Origin: Escherichia coli
GTDB lineage: Bacteria > Pseudomonadota > Gammaproteobacteria > Enterobacterales > Enterobacteriaceae
Length of the DNA: 60,038 nucleotides
Assembly: GCF_003991155.1 (NCBI RefSeq)
Contig: NZ_CP031296.1
Strand: one strand, 5' to 3'
Shown here piece after piece: positions 45,001-54,000 of the stretch. The position numbers are program-made. Each line of letters begins with the position of its first letter. Within the stretch, counting starts at the first letter, position 1.

Positions 45001-48000
45001 CATGCATGTAAATTCGCCATTATCCCATACCTGATAAGGGAAAATTGATTTGTCCCCCTTGAGTTGATAATGACCATTAATTATTCCACCATCAGTGCAT
45101 GGAAATGGCTTTTCAGTCATTACGGTAGCTGACGGTGGTTTCGGATAATTAAAACGCAGAATATACGTGGGTTGTTTCGTGGTTGATATCAGGTAAAGAG
45201 GATATATATGCTTATTGGTCTGAACGGTAACGTTTGTATCCGGTTCTTCTGCTTTTGGACGCAGAAACAGAGTGTTGTCCCTGACCGATACTGACCAGGC
45301 TTCTGGATCACCAATTCCGACATCTTTTATTGTTTCGTCTTGTCCGAACTTAATTGTTGTTTGTGCGCCTGCTTTTACGCGCACATTAAATACATCCTGC
45401 TCGTTATAATCTACGGTCTGAATACGCCCGTCTCGTTCCGATGGTGTGCCGTACATAGCTGCTAAAGCACCAGGTACTTGTAGCATCGACAAAAGAACTA
45501 TCGCAGTAGTGCGTTTAAGCATCATTTTATAACCTCTGGATCAGGTTGGTAGCTCAGAACTTGCAGTCCCAGCGGATTCACAAGGCGCTCTTTTTCTGTT
45601 TTGATATCTTTATCCCAGTCAAAAGAAATCGTCGAAATCCACTCTGTTGCTCTGTATCCGGGGGCGGGTTTACCAGATAAATCCAGTACCATTTTTTTGA
45701 AACGCACCTGCGCCATATCCTTCCTTAGAAGGATTACTGAATTAATCTGGACCTTAATTTTGTAGTTGTTTTTCAGAATGTTCAGTGGTGAGGAATCAGC
45801 ACGAATCATGGTGTCATAAGCTGAAAACACCTTTTGGGAAGACATTGTTTTTACTGTATCGGCCTGTTCCTGGATAGTCTGCCAGTCGTATGCTTCATAG
45901 TTAATGAGATATTTTGACAGGAAATATTTAGTCTCAACATCCTGATAACTTTCCTTAGCATCAGATAATTGAGGGGCAATATCAGTATATCCAGTGCTGT
46001 TATCCACTCGCACAAGGAACGGTACAGCGGTTTTTAATGGAGCAAGGGAGGCTATTGCGAAACCAAGAATGCAAATTACAACAAATTCACCAATGGCGAG
46101 AATGGTAAATGTTTTTGCCTTTTTCTTTATGATTTCAATTTCACTACGCTCAAAGTCACGTATGGCCTTGAAATAATCCTTTTTTTCGTTCTTTTCTTCA
46201 AATTTCTTTTTGGAGGCTTCTTTTTTTGAATGTTCATAATAGTTTGTGTTTTCCATTAATAATCACCTGCTTTGATCTGTTCAATTGCTGTGTTTAACTC
46301 AAACCATCCCCCTTTTTTCTGCACAGGATTGGGGGTGTGAGAACATGCACTAATTAATAGCGCGGAGGCAATTATGAGGGGGATTTTCATATTGTTTTCC
46401 GTTCTGTATAAAACAGAGAAATTAACCGTTCAGGCGTTTCAGGAGTTCTGGTATCCAGATATCAGGAGCTACATCTCCTTTTTCAGCAATAATCTCATCA
46501 AAAATAGACAGGCCAGTTTCAGAGCCAGAAAGCACGGGGATAAACTCATCGAATCCAAACAAATCCATTTTGGCGAAAACAGAAGAGCCAGATTGCTTGA
46601 TGAGCATGGTCCTTGACTCCTTCGTCAGTTCTTTGAGTTTTTCAAACTCTTTTTCAGTAAGCCCAATTTCTTTATATCCTTCCCATTTTGCATCGGGATT
46701 GGGCAGGAGAATTTTCGTTGCGGTTTGTTGTACCAGCGCCGCAAAAATTGCGCAGTTTATGGCGTCTTCCGGGGACTGTGATGTTAACCACATCATTTCA
46801 CCTTTCATGCGCCCCGCTTTCAGTGCGCTTTTAATCATGCTTTGTGTCATGGGAAAGTTTGCTGGCATCCAGAACTCTTCAATAATGGAGAGCATCAGAT
46901 TGCCGCCGCGTTGCATGATTTCTTTGTAGAAAAACAGGACCGCGAGTAAAGGTTCACAGGCAGGATGAATACCGTTTTTTGTGTCCAGGACAACGGTTGT
47001 ATCAAATCCCACTTTTTTATGATGCAGTGGATTGAAGGTATTCCGGGGGGAATCCACCGCCCAGGCATATTCGCCGTTGTCGCACCATTTGGCGAGACGC
47101 GTCTGAAGTTCAGGACTGACTATATCGAGAAGAAGGGCTGTCCGGCGTTCTTCGACAGGCATTCGCATAATGCTTTCCACGGCAGCGTTTAATTCAATGC
47201 CATGTTCATCAGAACAGGGGTTGCCCTGGTTGTCTCGTGCCAGAACCTGTGTCCAGCGTTTCAGAAATGCGAGAAGTCTGTGCCAGACGGGAGATTCCGG
47301 GCCTTCTGCCAGTTGCCACGGATTGCAGCCGGTATAGATACCTTCCTGCAATGTGAAATAGCTCCCTCCGTATGCGCGGACAAAAAGTTCGGTAGAACGG
47401 TTGTAATCCACAACAAACATTAAAGGGTCAAAGCGTTGAAGAAAGCCGCTGGCTGTTGCTTCAAATGTTGTTTTCCCTGTGCCTGTTGCGCCAAGAAACA
47501 TTGCGTGTCCGGCAATTTTTTGCCCGGTAACATTTTTTTCCGGTGGGCTGTAATGTGTATTGAACCAGTAAACGCTGCCTGAATCCGTTTTTAAAGGCAT
47601 TATGGCGGAGCCATCACCAATAGGATTGCCTGATTTTTTCCCGGAGGAATAATTGTGAAAAGACATCAGACAGGCCAGGTTGGTAATTGTTCTTCGGGTA
47701 TCCAGTGGACGCCTCTTATTCAGCGGCATATGACTGAAAAAAACAAAAGGTGATGCGAGTGAGGCGCGACTGAAGCGGAATCCCTTACCCGAAGTAATAA
47801 ACTCAGCAGAGAGCTTTATACCATTGCTTCTGGCCTGATCTGGTGTATCACCGAATACCGTTAATGCGCAGTGTAGTGAACCAAACAACGTAATTCCGGC
47901 TGCGACCGCTTCTTTACCAGCTTCGAGTTCTTCCTGCTGTATTTTGGCTGCATCATTAGCTGATTGTAGTTTGTTTAACTGTGAATCGATATTCTTCAGG

Positions 48001-51000: not shown

Positions 51001-54000
51001 GGAGCAAGCTGAAGAACCAACCCATAGCGATTACTCCTGTTGTGTGTCTTTAATTGTGATTACGCATTGTGAAATATTCCTGAATGCGTATAACGGTTTA
51101 TCTGCTGAAAGATAAAGCATCAGCGTATCTTTTAATGCAGATTCAAAGTTTCCCCGGAAAATAAGAGGAGCATCTATTCTGTAGTTCACAGGAGTATCCC
51201 ATACAAGATTCCAGGTTGAATTACCACACGGTGAACTTGACGCCCATTCGGTGAGGCCATCCCGCAGCGTCGAACCTTTTTTAAGATTCCAGGTGAGTTT
51301 TTCTGTCTGTTTTTGCGGAACGGTGACAGGCGTTAGCGGTTTTTGAGGTAACTTGTCAGAGGAAACTGGTGTCCTGACAGGAGATGCAGGGGTTTTGTCA
51401 GGAGATACAGGTGCTTTTTGTGATGTTTTCCCTTTCTGTTGTTGAAAATCAATCAGAAGATGTCTTTTTTCGGTGTTCTTAATTACCGTCAGACCGTAGT
51501 TGCGAAGCATTTTATCCAGGACATAAGGCCATTGATCGTTGCCCTGCCAGGATATCGTGCGACGGAAAGTTTTCGTTACCTCCGGGGATATTTCAGCCGT
51601 CCAGTCCGATGGGACAATTTCTTTTAATGCTTTTTGCAGCGAGCCTTTACCATCATGGCGAACAAAGTAAATTTGCTTTTCAGGTGTTGATGGGCCTGTA
51701 AGCGTGGTGGCCGGAACAGCGTTGTTAGCGTTTTTTTTCAGAAAACCGCTTTTTGACATTAGCGGTGGTTGTTCAGGACGCGGTTTTGTCTGCTGATCAG
51801 TCTTTTGTGCCGTTTGTGCCTGATGGTTGTTGCTACTGATTGGCTTTGCGGGAGAGAGTGCTGGTTGTTCAGAATGCTGTTTAGTTGCTCCTTTGGCTGC
51901 TGTTTTTATCTCACCAGATGAAGTTATGCTGTTTGTTGTCGGCTTCAGAAAACTATTATTGCTGCCCTGGTTTTTTGGCGCTGTCGCTGATTGCTCAGAA
52001 CGTGGTTTTACGGTTTCTGCAATACGAGGCGCGGGAGTTACGTTTATGGCTTCCTTTTTGAGATAATTATCATTGCTGTATTGAACAGTGCTGTTTGGCT
52101 GTGACACGGGCTGCTGAAGGGCCACCCCGTTATAGTATGTGTCTGCTCTTACCTGCTCAATTGTGGTATTCAGTTCATACCAACCTCCTTTTGCCTGTGC
52201 GGGTTCAGGGGCATGGGAACACGCATTCAGCAATAATGTGGTGGGAATAATAATGAGCTTTTTCATGGTTAACCCCAGGAACGTCCGAACTTACTCATGA
52301 TTTTTGAGATCGCCGCAGGGTCTGCGGTCGTGCATTGATTAAGAAACGCTTTTCGGGCATCAAAGGTTTTGCTCCAGCGAATAGATCCCTTTTTCTTTTT
52401 GATGATATTAAAGAAGTCCTTTTCGGCGCTTTTGCATTCGCTCCCGCCGCCGCTACCGATAGCTTTACCGTACAGACAAAGAACGGAAGCACACGGATCA
52501 GACGCATATACGGGGGCAGTGAGTGCGATAGCACTTGCGGCAACCATCGATAAAATGATGGATTTCATGGTGTTCCTCCATATTTCAGGCAAAAGAAAAC
52601 CCGCACGAGGCGGGTATGAATGAGCCATTAAAGGCGGAATTGCACTCTTTGTTTAGTTTTGATATCTATCCTGTTGCATCATCAGAACAGAATACTGGAG
52701 TTAAGTTGGTTATGGCGCGGTTTTATTTAAATGTACCTTTTGAAGAAAAGGAGTTAGCCAAACAAAAAGGGGCGCAATGGGATCAAGAACAACGGAAATG
52801 GTTTGTTCCACAGGGGAAAAATCCAATTTATTTTATTCAGTGGGTAAAAGAATTAAACGAACATGATTACAATATTTTTTCTCAACGTTTTTATATTGCG
52901 GAAAGTTACCAGTCATGTTGGCGCTGTAAGAAAATAACTCCTGTGTTTGGTGTTTTTTTGCCTCGTTGGTTTAGTTATAGAGATGTTGTTTGTGGGGTTA
53001 AACCTGCTGAATGGGAAGGTCGCATATTAGATAAATGGTATGAAACATCTTCTCCACGAGGTATGGTATATTTTGATTCAAAGAAAAATATAATTTATCA
53101 GTGGTTAACCAATCCAAAAGCATGGGCTATTTTATCCAACGTAAGAAGGATATCATCTTCTGCGTTATCAATAATCAATAAGCATTCTAAGTTATATTAT
53201 CCCGCCTATAGTAAAACAGCGAAAATGACCTACTACGCGAATCATTGTTGTCATTGTAAATCAATGCAGGGAGACTTTATGATGTTTGATGAGCCAGGTG
53301 GTGTGTTTTATCCAGTCACATCTGAACAGGCGAAGAAAATAAAACTCCATGAAGTAATAAATGAAACAATTTTTGCTAATGCAAACCACAGGCAAGCCAT
53401 AGAGTAATGCTTGGTAGTGGAGGTTTTATAAATCTTTACGCAAGATAAAACCCGCATGAGGCGGGTATTCTTTTAAATAGAATCACCTTGCTATAGGGAA
53501 GGTGATTCTATTGTAAACGTTCCATTAGATCCCGCACTGTCTTCTTGTACTCTTCTTTTTGTGCGTTGTTCTAATGCAGCACGAACATTAGAACTATTTA
53601 TCAACTGGTCACTGCGTACAGCCAAAAAAAGCCCGCTTTGCGAGCTGTTTTTAATGAAGGATTATTGCATCATATTTTTAAATGCTTTACCCGATTGCTC
53701 TTTTTGAATGGCTTCACGCGCATTTTCGCAGTTTTGACCAGACATATCCCCTTTGCTGCATTTTTCGACAACATCTTGGGCTTGTTCAAGATGTTCAGCG
53801 TAGTAACTGACATCATAAACTTTGTCTTCACAAGCAGCTAAAAGGAAGCATGACAAGATAGTTAAAGTGCTTATGAATTTTTTCATTCGAACACCTATTG
53901 CATCATTAATTTAAACTTTTCTCGACTAACAGCCTCTTGTCTTGCATTTTCAGACGCGATTAGCTGTCTCTCTGCAATATCATATTGCTTCAATTGTAGC

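What the first reader, a model, noticed from the sequence alone, without database searches (positions are those of the whole stretch)
46256..52266. VirB7-like lipoprotein module duplicated as the N-terminus of a 411-aa lipoprotein
The 44-aa VirB7-like lipoprotein (ACSHTPNPVQKKGGWFELNTAIEQIKAGDY) and the N-terminus of the 411-aa lipoprotein at 51031-52266 (ACSHAPEPAQAKGGWYELNTTIEQVRADTY) are clear paralogues. The larger protein adds a long Pro/Thr/Gln-rich linker and a C-terminal domain. This suggests both anchor to the same partner through a shared module, possibly linking the thin-pilus and VirB machineries.
Basis: seen in the sequence. Interest (0 to 1): 0.45.

Follow-up and report, generated by a model that had tools for sequence, protein, structure and literature searches.

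The report
VirB7 module grafted onto pilus lipoprotein PilL
On this mcr-1 IncI2 plasmid the thin-pilus lipoprotein PilL begins with a copy of the conjugation channel's small VirB7 lipoprotein, which may tether the mating pilus to the DNA-transfer pore, although no binding has been shown.

Summary
The 44-aa ORF (46256-46390, minus strand) and residues 1-44 of the 411-aa protein (51031-52266, minus strand) share 26/44 residues. The similarity runs through the whole mature peptide (19/29, shuffle z = 24), not only the lipobox.

The window is an mcr-1 IncI2 plasmid. The small ORF is traF, the VirB7-position lipoprotein. Homologues sit directly upstream of virB8 in pilus-less plasmids.

The large protein is PilL. 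It has a lipobox, the VirB7 module, a roughly 150-aa disordered linker and two N0-like domains whose best structural match is the secretin-binding protein BfpG.

Its module resembles VirB7 proteins far more than it resembles other PilL N-termini, so IncI2 PilL is a chimera.

More widely, all 8 PilL proteins encoded beside virB genes carry a VirB7-like N-terminus, and seven further representatives carry a Cag12 domain. None of 41 PilL proteins without virB neighbours does.

Best reading (about 0.45): PilL docks on VirB9 and on the PilN secretin, coupling pilus and channel, or it backs up TraF. Binding is inferred, not shown. I rate it a new variant of a known kind (compare Xanthomonas VirB7 plus N0 domain).

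The parts
46256..46390 (-). traF, the 44-aa VirB7-position outer-membrane lipoprotein (signal peptide MKIPLIIASALLISA, lipobox Cys16)
   Evidence: ORF. Its stop overlaps the virB8 start (TAATG). It is named 'R721 traF (virB7)' in TP114. Homologues lie upstream of virB8 in pEC4115, pET-RE-04-2, pHNLDL3-2 and pZ1323HSL0042-3.
46259..46345 (-). Mature TraF peptide (residues 16-44), containing the motif KGGWFELNT
   Evidence: Alignment with other VirB7-position lipoproteins. W-x-x-(L/V/I/M)-N-(T/S/K) aligns with the VNK/VNS of canonical-type relatives. The PVNK rationale is taken from PMC3093366.
51031..52266 (-). pilL, the 411-aa thin-pilus (type IVb) lipoprotein
   Evidence: Pfam TcpQ E = 7e-15. 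It is followed by pilM and annotated as a TcpQ-domain protein. It is named pilL in TP114.
52135..52221 (-). VirB7-type module of PilL (residues 16-44, CSHAPEPAQAKGGWYELNTTIEQVRADTY)
   Evidence: 19/29 identical to mature TraF, 19/28 to pEC4115 VirB7 and 17/28 to Edwardsiella TraF, but only 6-11 identities to other PilL N-termini. The segment AQAKGGWYEL reaches pLDDT 84 when fused to the VirB9 C-terminal domain.
51682..52134 (-). Disordered P/S/T/A/N/Q/K-rich linker of PilL (residues 45-195)
   Evidence: Composition. pLDDT is mostly below 50 in the full-length model. The region is not conserved among PilL homologues.
51433..51669 (-). First folded domain of PilL (about residues 200-278)
   Evidence: pLDDT 94-98 with a beta-alpha-beta order like that of the second domain. 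It is conserved among PilL homologues, with the signature SW-GNDQWP-VL.
51043..51309 (-). Second folded domain of PilL (about residues 320-408), the TcpQ/BfpG-type N0-like domain
   Evidence: Pfam TcpQ covers residues 325-407. Sequence match to BfpG 9u5s_R has E = 0.003. For the full-length PilL model, Foldseek gives BfpG as best hit (TM 0.85, rmsd 2.1 A), then FecA/FpvA/PupB signalling domains, DotD and secretin N0 domains. That Foldseek output does not say which PilL domain was aligned.
44758..45144 (-). VirB9 (traH) linker plus C-terminal domain (residues 128-256), the proposed docking site
   Evidence: Pfam CagX/VirB9. The modelled domain matches the TrwF, TraO and X. citri VirB9 C-terminal domains. 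Docking is inferred.
45522..46256 (-). virB8 (traG), translationally coupled to traF
   Evidence: Pfam VirB8 E = 6e-42. Start/stop overlap shown.
38359..40002 (-). pilN, the lipoprotein-type type IVb pilus secretin and proposed partner of the PilL N0-like domains
   Evidence: NCBIfam PilN family, 439 bits. The partnership is by analogy with BfpB-BfpG (PMC12531336).
50588..51025 (-). pilM
   Evidence: Pfam PilM E = 1e-13.
52269..52568 (-). trbM/kikA, directly upstream of pilL
   Evidence: Pfam TrbM and annotation. The trbM-pilL adjacency recurs in L005, L010, L014, L023 and L064.

Best explanation
SHOWN: the window is an mcr-1 IncI2 plasmid in which the VirB-type conjugation genes are nested inside the thin-pilus (type IVb) operon. 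The order is trbM-pilL-pilM-orf-virB1..virB4-traF-virB8..virB11-virD4-...-pilN..pilV. The 44-aa ORF is traF, a small lipoprotein at the VirB7 position. The 411-aa protein is PilL, and it is a chimera with four parts: signal peptide and lipobox; a 29-aa module of the virB7 lineage; a disordered linker of about 150 aa; and two N0-like domains of the BfpG/TcpQ type. INFERRED: TraF and the PilL module both bind the VirB9 C-terminal domain. They would do so through the W-x-x-L-N segment, the local form of the VirB7 'PVNK' motif in which a hydrophobic residue inserts into the VirB9 beta-sandwich and the Asn hydrogen-bonds its backbone. The C-terminal N0-like domains of PilL would bind the lipoprotein secretin PilN, as BfpG binds BfpB. 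With its N-terminus on the conjugation outer-membrane core complex and its C-terminus on the pilus secretin, PilL would hold the mating-pair-stabilising pilus next to the DNA-transfer pore. It could also supply VirB7 function when TraF is missing.
For: Paralogy beyond the lipobox. Old duplication with both copies constrained. TraF as VirB7: it lies directly upstream of virB8 with a TAATG overlap. Homologues lie upstream of virB8 in pilus-less MPF_T plasmids, one of them between virB6 and virB8 and carrying 'WVPVNS'. It is named virB7 in TP114 and treated as one of 12 VirB subunits in PMC11873049. PilL identity and fold; secretin binding by this fold is from PMC12531336. Chimera: the module scores 97-118 against VirB7 proteins of the IncI2/pEC4115/Edwardsiella clade but 29-49 against other PilL N-termini, whereas the PilL body is closest to P0129 and P0130. 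Context association: an HMM built only from VirB7-position lipoproteins scores 8/8 virB-linked PilL N-termini at 12.6-45.9 bits and 41/41 other PilLs at 1.1 bits or less. Two further virB-linked contigs (L064, L065) also carry the motif. Independent second architecture: seven PilL representatives are Cag12 (VirB7/CagT-type lipoprotein domain) plus TcpQ, above Pfam thresholds, and one of them sits right after virD4. Structure proxy: in VirB9 C-terminal domain-(G4S)6-PilL(16-59) the VirB9 domain has pLDDT 72-88, the linker 35-41, residues 171-180 (AQAKGGWYEL) 84 with a strand at YEL, and the rest below 50. The same module reaches only about 60 in full-length PilL alone. Possible redundancy: traF is scored non-essential in TP114 while all other virB genes are essential. 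At least 36 of 514 IncI2 plasmids have the traF ATG out of frame. Two virB+pil plasmids show no small VirB7 ORF between virB6 and virB8.
Against: No binding was measured. The AlphaFold result rests on an artificial single-chain fusion and a 15-row alignment, and neither PAE nor contacts could be inspected. If both proteins use the same VirB9 site they compete, and how 14 sites would be shared is unknown. TP114 transposon data show that pilL is not needed for transfer on agar, so the T4SS works without PilL. In most other virB-linked PilLs the key Asn is replaced by Glu or Asp (W-V-x-F-E/D), which could mean a different partner. The context association reduces to about two clades in a crude NJ tree, so it reflects few independent events. 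In full-length PilL the module has pLDDT of about 60 and a 2-residue bridge, so a contact with PilL's own domains is not excluded. The traF non-essentiality call comes from a 135-bp target and is weak.
Confidence: 0.45

Rival explanations
1. Evolutionary leftover. A recombination or duplication event gave pilL a new 5' end (ribosome-binding context, signal peptide, lipobox and first about 30 residues) taken from a virB7 gene. The segment now serves only as a lipid anchor and tether. The similarity to TraF has no consequence for partner choice, and the two machines are not physically linked.
For: The module is a graft: it is closer to VirB7 proteins than to other PilL N-termini. PilL is not needed for conjugation on agar. 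The region after residue 44 is disordered and unconserved. The gene order in IncI2 is rearranged relative to relatives, where virD4-trbM-pilL-pilM-pilN is contiguous, so recombination happened in this region.
Against: Synonymous sites are saturated, yet 19/29 mature residues are retained, including the whole GGW(Y/F)ELNT core. A mere tether would drift, as the adjacent linker does. PilL relatives that were not grafted also carry a VirB7-like motif or a Cag12 domain, and only when they lie next to virB genes. AlphaFold orders exactly the conserved core next to VirB9.
Confidence: 0.25
2. The module binds N0-like domains rather than VirB9. A short N-terminal strand of PilL would add to the N0-like domain of a neighbouring PilL, or to PilN, building the ring around the secretin. 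This would resemble the Xanthomonas VirB7 N-terminal segment binding a neighbour's N0 domain, or the BfpB strands clamping BfpG. The resemblance to TraF would reflect a generic strand-addition peptide.
For: There is precedent for both interaction types (PMC3093366; PMC12531336). In full-length PilL alone the module reaches pLDDT of about 60 with a 2-residue bridge at Y30-E31. Other PilLs have W-V-x-F-E/D rather than the Asn-containing VirB7 form.
Against: This does not explain why the motif is absent from all 41 PilLs that lack virB neighbours yet have the same N0-like domains and PilN. It also does not explain why IncI2 could swap in a genuine VirB7 module, or why a sister group uses Cag12. 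Confidence is higher next to VirB9 (84) than within PilL (about 60).
Confidence: 0.15
3. PilL is simply a second, redundant VirB7. Its module occupies VirB9 sites to stabilise the core complex, and any pilus-channel coupling is incidental. TraF is on the way to being lost.
For: traF is scored non-essential in TP114. The traF start is out of frame in at least 36 of 514 IncI2 plasmids. No separate VirB7 ORF was found in L005/L030 and L065.
Against: pilL is also non-essential on agar, so a single-gene test cannot tell. traF is retained, with the mature peptide intact, in all of about 518 plasmids. VirB7 genes may lie elsewhere in L005 and L065. PilL keeps a long linker and secretin-type domains, which a mere VirB7 would not need.
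Confidence: 0.15

Closest known systems
Canonical VirB7 lipoproteins (pKM101 TraN, R388 TrwH, A. tumefaciens VirB7)
   Same: TraF is a small lipoprotein encoded directly upstream of virB8. It has a short extended peptide with a hydrophobic-Asn pair aligned to the PVNK motif that contacts the VirB9 C-terminal domain. The IncI2 VirB9 C-terminal domain model matches TrwF and TraO.
   Different: There is no detectable sequence match to Pfam, NCBIfam or PDB VirB7 entries. The motif reads ELNT rather than PVNK. traF follows virB4 because virB5 and virB6 lie elsewhere. traF was scored non-essential in TP114.
Xanthomonas citri VirB7 (XAC2622; PDB 2N01, 6GYB)
   Same: PilL has the same three-part logic: a lipobox, an N-terminal VirB7 motif and a C-terminal N0-type domain. 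BfpG/TcpQ domains were reported to resemble the X. citri VirB7 C-terminal domain.
   Different: X. citri VirB7 is the sole VirB7, is encoded in the virB operon, and its N0 domains ring the T4SS itself. PilL is a pilus gene next to pilM and has a 150-aa linker and two N0-like domains of the secretin-binding TcpQ subtype. It coexists with a separate VirB7.
IncI1 R64 PilL, V. cholerae TcpQ and EPEC BfpG (secretin partners of type IVb pili)
   Same: They share the TcpQ domain, the N0-like fold and synteny with the PilN-type lipoprotein secretin. pilL is required for pilus-dependent transfer in TP114.
   Different: IncI1-type and ICE-type PilL proteins match only residues of about 184-411 and have unrelated N-termini. 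BfpG and TcpQ are not lipoproteins and lack any N-terminal extension.
Cag12 (CagT/VirB7-type)::TcpQ PilL proteins found here (for example P0199 on L066)
   Same: The N-terminal part of PilL is again a T4SS outer-membrane lipoprotein element, and the gene lies immediately after virD4 and before pilM-pilN.
   Different: The N-terminal element is a folded domain of about 90 aa (PF13117) rather than a 29-aa peptide. IncI2 PilL has no Cag12 match.
Legionella DotD (type IVB secretion lipoprotein with N0-like domain)
   Same: It is a lipoprotein with a disordered N-terminal region and an N0-like domain in a T4SS outer-membrane complex. It appears among the Foldseek matches.
   Different: It belongs to the Dot/Icm class. 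The DotD/TraH protein of an IncI1-like plasmid shares only the lipobox with that plasmid's PilL.

Membership tests
VirB7 (for the 44-aa TraF) | Signal peptide ending in a lipobox Cys | tested here: met
   MKIPLIIASALLISA|C is read directly from the ORF. Lipidation itself was not tested.
VirB7 (for the 44-aa TraF) | Small mature size (normally 30-45 residues, PMC3093366) | tested here: met
   The mature peptide is 29 residues, at the lower edge of the range.
VirB7 (for the 44-aa TraF) | Gene immediately upstream of virB8 within the virB operon | tested here: met
   The stop and start overlap as TAATG. A homologue lies between virB6 and virB8 in pHNLDL3-2.
VirB7 (for the 44-aa TraF) | P-(I/L/V)-N-K type VirB9-binding motif (conserved hydrophobic residue plus Asn) | tested here: inconclusive
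   ELNT aligns with VNS, MNT and VNK of relatives. Hydrophobic-Asn is kept, but Pro and Lys are not.
VirB7 (for the 44-aa TraF) | Match to a curated VirB7 model or a solved VirB7 sequence | tested here: not met
   No Pfam or NCBIfam family at E <= 0.01. Only chance PDB hits. VirB7 proteins are known to be very poorly conserved.
VirB7 (for the 44-aa TraF) | Physical binding to the VirB9 C-terminal domain and stabilisation of the core complex | not testable with these tools
   The only evidence is a proxy on the paralogous PilL module. The TP114 transposon screen scores traF non-essential.
PilL / TcpQ-domain pilus lipoprotein (for the 411-aa protein) | TcpQ domain (PF10671) | tested here: met
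   E = 7.1e-15 and 55.3 bits against a cutoff of 27, covering residues 325-407.
PilL / TcpQ-domain pilus lipoprotein (for the 411-aa protein) | N0-like fold of the BfpG/TcpQ type | tested here: met
   Foldseek against 9u5s_R gives TM 0.85 and rmsd 2.1 A, followed by N0/STN domains and DotD. pLDDT is 93-98.
PilL / TcpQ-domain pilus lipoprotein (for the 411-aa protein) | Lipoprotein signal | tested here: met
   MKKLIIIPTTLLLNA|C. Asn at position -2 is unusual, and lipidation was not tested.
PilL / TcpQ-domain pilus lipoprotein (for the 411-aa protein) | Encoded with pilM and a PilN-family secretin | tested here: met
   pilM lies directly downstream and pilN lies in the same strand cluster.
PilL / TcpQ-domain pilus lipoprotein (for the 411-aa protein) | Required for thin-pilus function | not testable with these tools
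   TP114 data score pilL as needed for transfer in the gut but not on agar.
Xanthomonas-type VirB7 (VirB7 motif plus N0 domain), considered for PilL | Lipobox followed by a VirB7 motif | tested here: met
   19/29 identity to TraF and alignment.
Xanthomonas-type VirB7 (VirB7 motif plus N0 domain), considered for PilL | C-terminal N0 domain | tested here: met
   although the domains are of the TcpQ/BfpG subtype and there are two of them.
Xanthomonas-type VirB7 (VirB7 motif plus N0 domain), considered for PilL | Encoded at the VirB7 position and acting as the system's VirB7 | tested here: not met
   pilL lies between trbM and pilM, and a separate traF occupies the VirB7 position.
Xanthomonas-type VirB7 (VirB7 motif plus N0 domain), considered for PilL | N0 domains form an extra ring on the T4SS core complex | not testable with these tools
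   This would need cryo-EM or cryo-ET.
Cag12 (PF13117) lipoprotein domain, considered for PilL | Match to PF13117 | tested here: not met
   IncI2 PilL has no such hit, whereas seven related PilL representatives do.

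The most novel reading that the evidence does not exclude
In every conjugative element that combines a VirB-type (MPF_T) secretion system with a type IVb mating pilus, PilL is a two-headed adaptor. Its N-terminus (a VirB7 peptide, a PilL-type W-x-x-F-E variant or a Cag12 domain) plugs into the VirB9 ring of the conjugation channel. Its N0-like domains clamp the PilN secretin. Pilus and DNA-transfer pore would then form one outer-membrane supercomplex, and retraction of the pilus would deliver the recipient directly onto the channel. IncI2 would show this most clearly because a genuine virB7 module was swapped in and still works.
Probability: 0.3. Interest if true: 0.8.

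Novelty: new variant of a known kind. Interest (0 to 1): 0.6.

Why it matters
IncI2 plasmids are the main vehicles of mcr-1 (present in this window). Their exceptional transfer in the gut depends on the thin pilus, including pilL. How the mating-pair-stabilising type IV pilus is coordinated in space with the separate VirB channel is not known.

A lipoprotein with a VirB9-binding head and a secretin-binding tail would give a concrete, mutable link between the two machines. The link comes down to a few residues: W29, L32 and N33. It could also explain why traF appears dispensable.

The finding extends the 'VirB7 motif plus N0 domain' idea from Xanthomonas to a cross-machine adaptor. The same pattern recurs, with different N-terminal elements, in other plasmids that combine VirB genes with a type IVb pilus.

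It also flags an annotation gap. The 44-aa gene has no listed feature in most of the plasmid gene tables sampled.

Tried and rejected
- Word-indexed protein searches with the 44-aa protein and with PilL returned only near-identical IncI2 sequences, so they said nothing about distribution.
- A locus search with a 58-sequence PilL alignment failed for lack of conserved stretches. It worked with 13 sequences.
- A sequence search of the PDB with the 44-aa protein gave only chance hits to an unrelated repeat protein.
- I tested whether IncI1-type plasmids show an analogous paralogy between PilL and their DotD/TraH lipoprotein. Only the lipobox matches, so this idea was rejected.
- I looked for plasmid-specific co-variation between PilL N-termini and the resident VirB7 in L017, L021 and L023. 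By inspection of the alignment they share only the C-S...(D/E)-W core, so the high similarity is specific to IncI2. The scripted comparison crashed before printing this part.
- I tested whether the context association reflects many independent events. A crude NJ tree places motif-bearing PilLs in about two clades, so I do not treat it as 8-10 independent observations.
- 'Recent duplication or gene conversion' was rejected because synonymous sites are saturated and flanks are unrelated.
- 'Similarity is only signal peptide and lipobox' was rejected.
- Literature searches found no paper describing the TraF-PilL paralogy. Subscription-only literature, such as the original R721 and R64 papers, could not be searched.

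Full report
**What the window is.** A 10-kb stretch around the finding is 100% identical to IncI2 plasmids such as pIPCEC42_2, and 517 PLSDB plasmids match it. All are typed IncI2 / MOBP / MPF_T. The window also carries MCR-1 (18792-20417; 1302.7 bits against a cutoff of 1100). On the minus strand the gene order is: trbM/kikA (52269-52568), pilL (51031-52266), pilM (50588-51025), a 132-aa ORF, virB1, virB2, virB3, virB4 (46422-48779), the 44-aa ORF (46256-46390), virB8, virB9, virB10, virB11, virD4, a small P-loop protein, then pilN to pilV and rci. The genes virB5, virB6 and eexN lie separately at 53662-55540. The VirB channel genes are therefore nested inside the thin-pilus operon.

**Check of the observation.** BLASTP of the 44-aa protein against the 411-aa protein gives 26/44 identities without gaps, E = 3e-18.
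- Restricting to the mature peptides from the lipobox Cys gives 19/29 identities. The local score is 118, against 24.4 +/- 3.8 for 5000 shuffles (z = 24). Without the CSH tripeptide z is still 19.
- The DNA copies are only 65% identical, with 24 of 46 differences at third codon positions and unrelated flanks. dS is saturated while dN is 0.24-0.27.
- The paralogy is therefore real, extends across the whole mature TraF peptide, and is old. Both copies have been kept under protein-level constraint.
- tblastn finds two copies in essentially every one of 518 IncI2-type plasmids.

**The small protein.** It has a lipoprotein signal (LISA|C). Its stop codon overlaps the virB8 start (TAATG).
- Homologous small lipoproteins sit directly upstream of virB8 in MPF_T plasmids that have no pil genes in the regions examined:
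  - Edwardsiella pET-RE-04-2: CSSKSPDPKLAKGDWYDLNTTIQAVKAGTY.
  - pEC4115: CSSPPQPKQAEGGWYELNTTIQDVKARTM.
  - pZ1323HSL0042-3: ...KPKGKWVQMNT...
  - pHNLDL3-2, where it lies in the textbook position between virB6 and virB8 and reads ...LPKGDWVPVNS....
- Aligned, the family shares (G/D)-x-W-x-x-(L/V/I/M)-N-(T/S/K). Published structural work on TraN-TraO and Xanthomonas VirB7-VirB9 identifies a PVNK-type motif. Its hydrophobic residue inserts between the VirB9 sheets, its Asn makes backbone hydrogen bonds, and it is preceded by a short strand that adds to a VirB9 sheet (PMC3093366).
- The gene is already called 'R721 traF (virB7)' in the TP114 annotation. A 2025 study counts 12 VirB subunits for IncI2.
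- It matches no Pfam, NCBIfam or PDB VirB7 entry. This is unsurprising for such a poorly conserved family, but it means that membership rests on position, size, lipobox and motif.
- In most PLSDB gene tables nothing is listed under it.

**The large protein.** It is PilL.
- Pfam TcpQ covers residues 325-407 (E = 7e-15), pilM follows it, and TP114 names it pilL.
- AlphaFold2 with a 58-row alignment predicts residues 1-195 as disordered and two confident domains, about 200-278 and 320-408 (pLDDT 93-98), with the same beta-alpha-beta order.
- The best Foldseek match is BfpG of the EPEC BfpB-BfpG secretin complex (9u5s_R; TM 0.85; rmsd 2.1 A). It is followed by TonB-receptor signalling domains, DotD and secretin N0 domains. 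A direct sequence match to BfpG has E = 0.003.
- The BfpBG paper shows that this N0-like protein forms a 17:17 hoop on a lipoprotein-type secretin. [quoted passage not shown]
- By analogy the PilL domains should bind PilN (inference).

**IncI2 PilL is a chimera.**
- Other PilL proteins in plasmids align only from about residue 184 onward.
- Among 150 representatives from 1.8 billion proteins, the PilL body is closest to P0129 and P0130 (39-43% identity). Their N-termini read CSSPPGLPEPKGEWMDFES and CSSPPKLTEPKGDWVSFEP.
- The IncI2 module scores 97-118 (17-19 of 28-29 identities) against the VirB7-position proteins of the IncI2, pEC4115 and Edwardsiella systems. It scores only 29-49 (6-11 identities) against ten other PilL N-termini.
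- It is as close to pEC4115 VirB7 as to the resident TraF. By my manual count of the mature sequences, TraF and pEC4115 VirB7 share fewer residues (15/29). The graft is therefore ancient and is not a recent copy of the neighbouring gene.

**The wider pattern.**
- From 53 genomic loci with PilL homologues plus plasmid and metagenome contigs, I sorted PilLs by neighbourhood.
- Every PilL lying next to virB/virD4/trbM genes starts with C-S-S-P-P-x(3-5)-P-(K/E/D)-G-(D/E/Q)-(W/F)-x-x-(F/V/L/M/A)-(E/D/N). These are IncI2, Salmonella L005/L030, L009, L010, Erwinia L014, Xenorhabdus L017, L021 and Symbiopectobacterium L023; later also L064 and L065.
- An HMM built only from VirB7-position lipoproteins, with no PilL included, scores these 8 distinct N-termini at 12.6-45.9 bits. 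All 41 PilLs without virB neighbours score 1.1 bits or less. Those 41 are of the IncI1-like and ICE-like types, which have quite different N-terminal regions.
- A further group of seven PilL representatives carries a Pfam Cag12 domain, the CagT/VirB7-type lipoprotein family, in front of TcpQ. One of them (P0199, L066) sits directly after virD4 and before pilM-pilN, with a separate 44-aa VirB7 upstream of virB8.
- PilL proteins linked to VirB systems thus repeatedly carry T4SS outer-membrane-lipoprotein elements at their N-termini.
- Caveat: in a crude NJ tree of the conserved C-terminal part, the motif-bearing PilLs fall into about two clades. The association therefore reflects few evolutionary events.
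- Second caveat: outside IncI2 the PilL variant usually has Glu or Asp where VirB7 has Asn.

**Structural proxy for the shared partner.**
- I fused the IncI2 VirB9 region 128-256 to PilL residues 16-59 through a (G4S)6 linker. I supplied 15 paired rows (VirB9 with the cognate VirB7 or PilL N-terminus; alignment A4).
- AlphaFold2 folds the VirB9 domain (pLDDT 72-88) and leaves the linker at 35-41. It raises only residues 171-180 (AQAKGGWYEL) to a mean pLDDT of 84, with a three-residue strand at YEL. The rest of the module falls below 50.
- The modelled domain matches the TrwF, TraO, CagX and X. citri VirB9 C-terminal domains. In full-length PilL alone the same residues reach only about 60.
- This is the behaviour expected of a VirB7-type strand-addition peptide. 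However, I could not inspect contacts or PAE, the alignment is shallow, and no scrambled control was possible.

**Mechanism proposed.**
- Shown: the paralogy, the chimeric origin, the domain architecture and the context association.
- Inferred, step 1: TraF and the PilL module bind the same site on the VirB9 C-terminal domain.
- Inferred, step 2: the PilL N0-like domains bind PilN.
- Inferred, step 3: the 150-aa linker lets one protein bridge the two outer-membrane rings, placing the mating-pair-stabilising pilus beside the DNA channel.
- A related possibility is that PilL backs up TraF. This would fit three observations: the TP114 screen, in which traF is the only virB gene scored non-essential; the natural C-tract variant that puts the traF ATG out of frame in at least 36 of 514 IncI2 plasmids; and the apparent absence of a small VirB7 ORF in two virB+pil plasmids.
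- Against the proposal: pilL is dispensable for transfer on agar, the two proteins would compete for sites, and the evidence for binding is indirect.

**Comparison with known systems.** TraF works like, and by position and motif is, a VirB7, though it is unrecognised by curated models. PilL is a bona fide PilL/TcpQ-family member. Its overall logic (lipobox, VirB7 motif, N0-type domain) is that of Xanthomonas VirB7. It fails membership of that group because it is not at the VirB7 position and coexists with a separate VirB7. No paper in the searchable library describes the TraF-PilL paralogy or a VirB7::TcpQ architecture.

**Verdict.** I rate it a new variant of a known kind, with interest 0.6. 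The finding is testable with a handful of point mutants in a clinically important plasmid family.

Noticed in passing
window 46370-46392 (traF start); L067 7935-7990: In pHNLDH19 the traF start region reads ATGCCCCCCCCTC instead of ATGAAAATCCCCCTC (net -2 nt in a C-tract). The ATG is then out of frame with the lipoprotein ORF, and no canonical in-frame start lies upstream. 36 of 514 IncI2 plasmids are identical to this variant and 43 more are 95-99% identical to it. This fits tblastn covering only residues 18-44 in 89 of 518 records.
   Followed up: partly
window 52269-52568: trbM/kikA lies directly upstream of pilL here and also in L005, L010, L014, L023 and L064. The TP114 transposon screen scores kikA as needed only for transfer in the gut, like the pil genes, which suggests that it belongs functionally with the pilus rather than the channel.
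   Followed up: no
L064 2748-3746: In the closest relative of the IncI2 pilL locus, a VirB7-like signal peptide and motif (MCVVLCAASLLLACYFQQNNHNLSGEWEDV...) is in the same reading frame as virB8 with no stop between them. This is either a VirB7-VirB8 fusion or a sequencing or assembly artefact.
   Followed up: no
L005 6692-6848 (and L030); L065 2902-3010: Two plasmids that combine virB genes with a type IVb pilus show no small lipoprotein ORF between virB6 and virB8, although their PilL carries the VirB7-like motif. PilL might be their only VirB7-like protein, or the gene may lie elsewhere.
   Followed up: partly
window 46256-46390: The 44-aa traF gene has no feature listed under it in most PLSDB gene tables sampled. 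It is occasionally listed as 'hypothetical protein' or 'traF protein'. The PLSDB tables are incomplete, so the original records may differ.
   Followed up: partly
window 44755-45525: The RefSeq VirB9 entry for the identical plasmid starts 69 nt downstream (233 aa). This removes the N-terminal MMLKRTTAIVLLSMLQVPGALAA, which looks like the signal peptide of the 256-aa ORF.
   Followed up: no
window 18792-20417: This ORF is the MCR-1 phosphoethanolamine transferase (1302.7 bits against a cutoff of 1100), so the window is an mcr-1 IncI2 plasmid.
   Followed up: yes
window 50071-50469: The 132-aa ORF between pilM and virB1 (ygeA in TP114) has no Pfam or NCBIfam match, yet it is scored as needed for transfer in TP114, both in vitro (+) and in the gut (++).
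   Followed up: no
L013-L060 (PilL N-termini): PilL N-terminal regions fall into distinct types that track the neighbourhood. One is a helix-like C..P..V..LI..Q type in IncI1-like loci. Another is a ...DIY..R.PEVVRYDRYTLVS type in chromosomal ICE-like loci. The third is the VirB7-like or Cag12 type next to virB genes. This suggests that the PilL N-terminus may generally be matched to the associated transfer system.
   Followed up: partly
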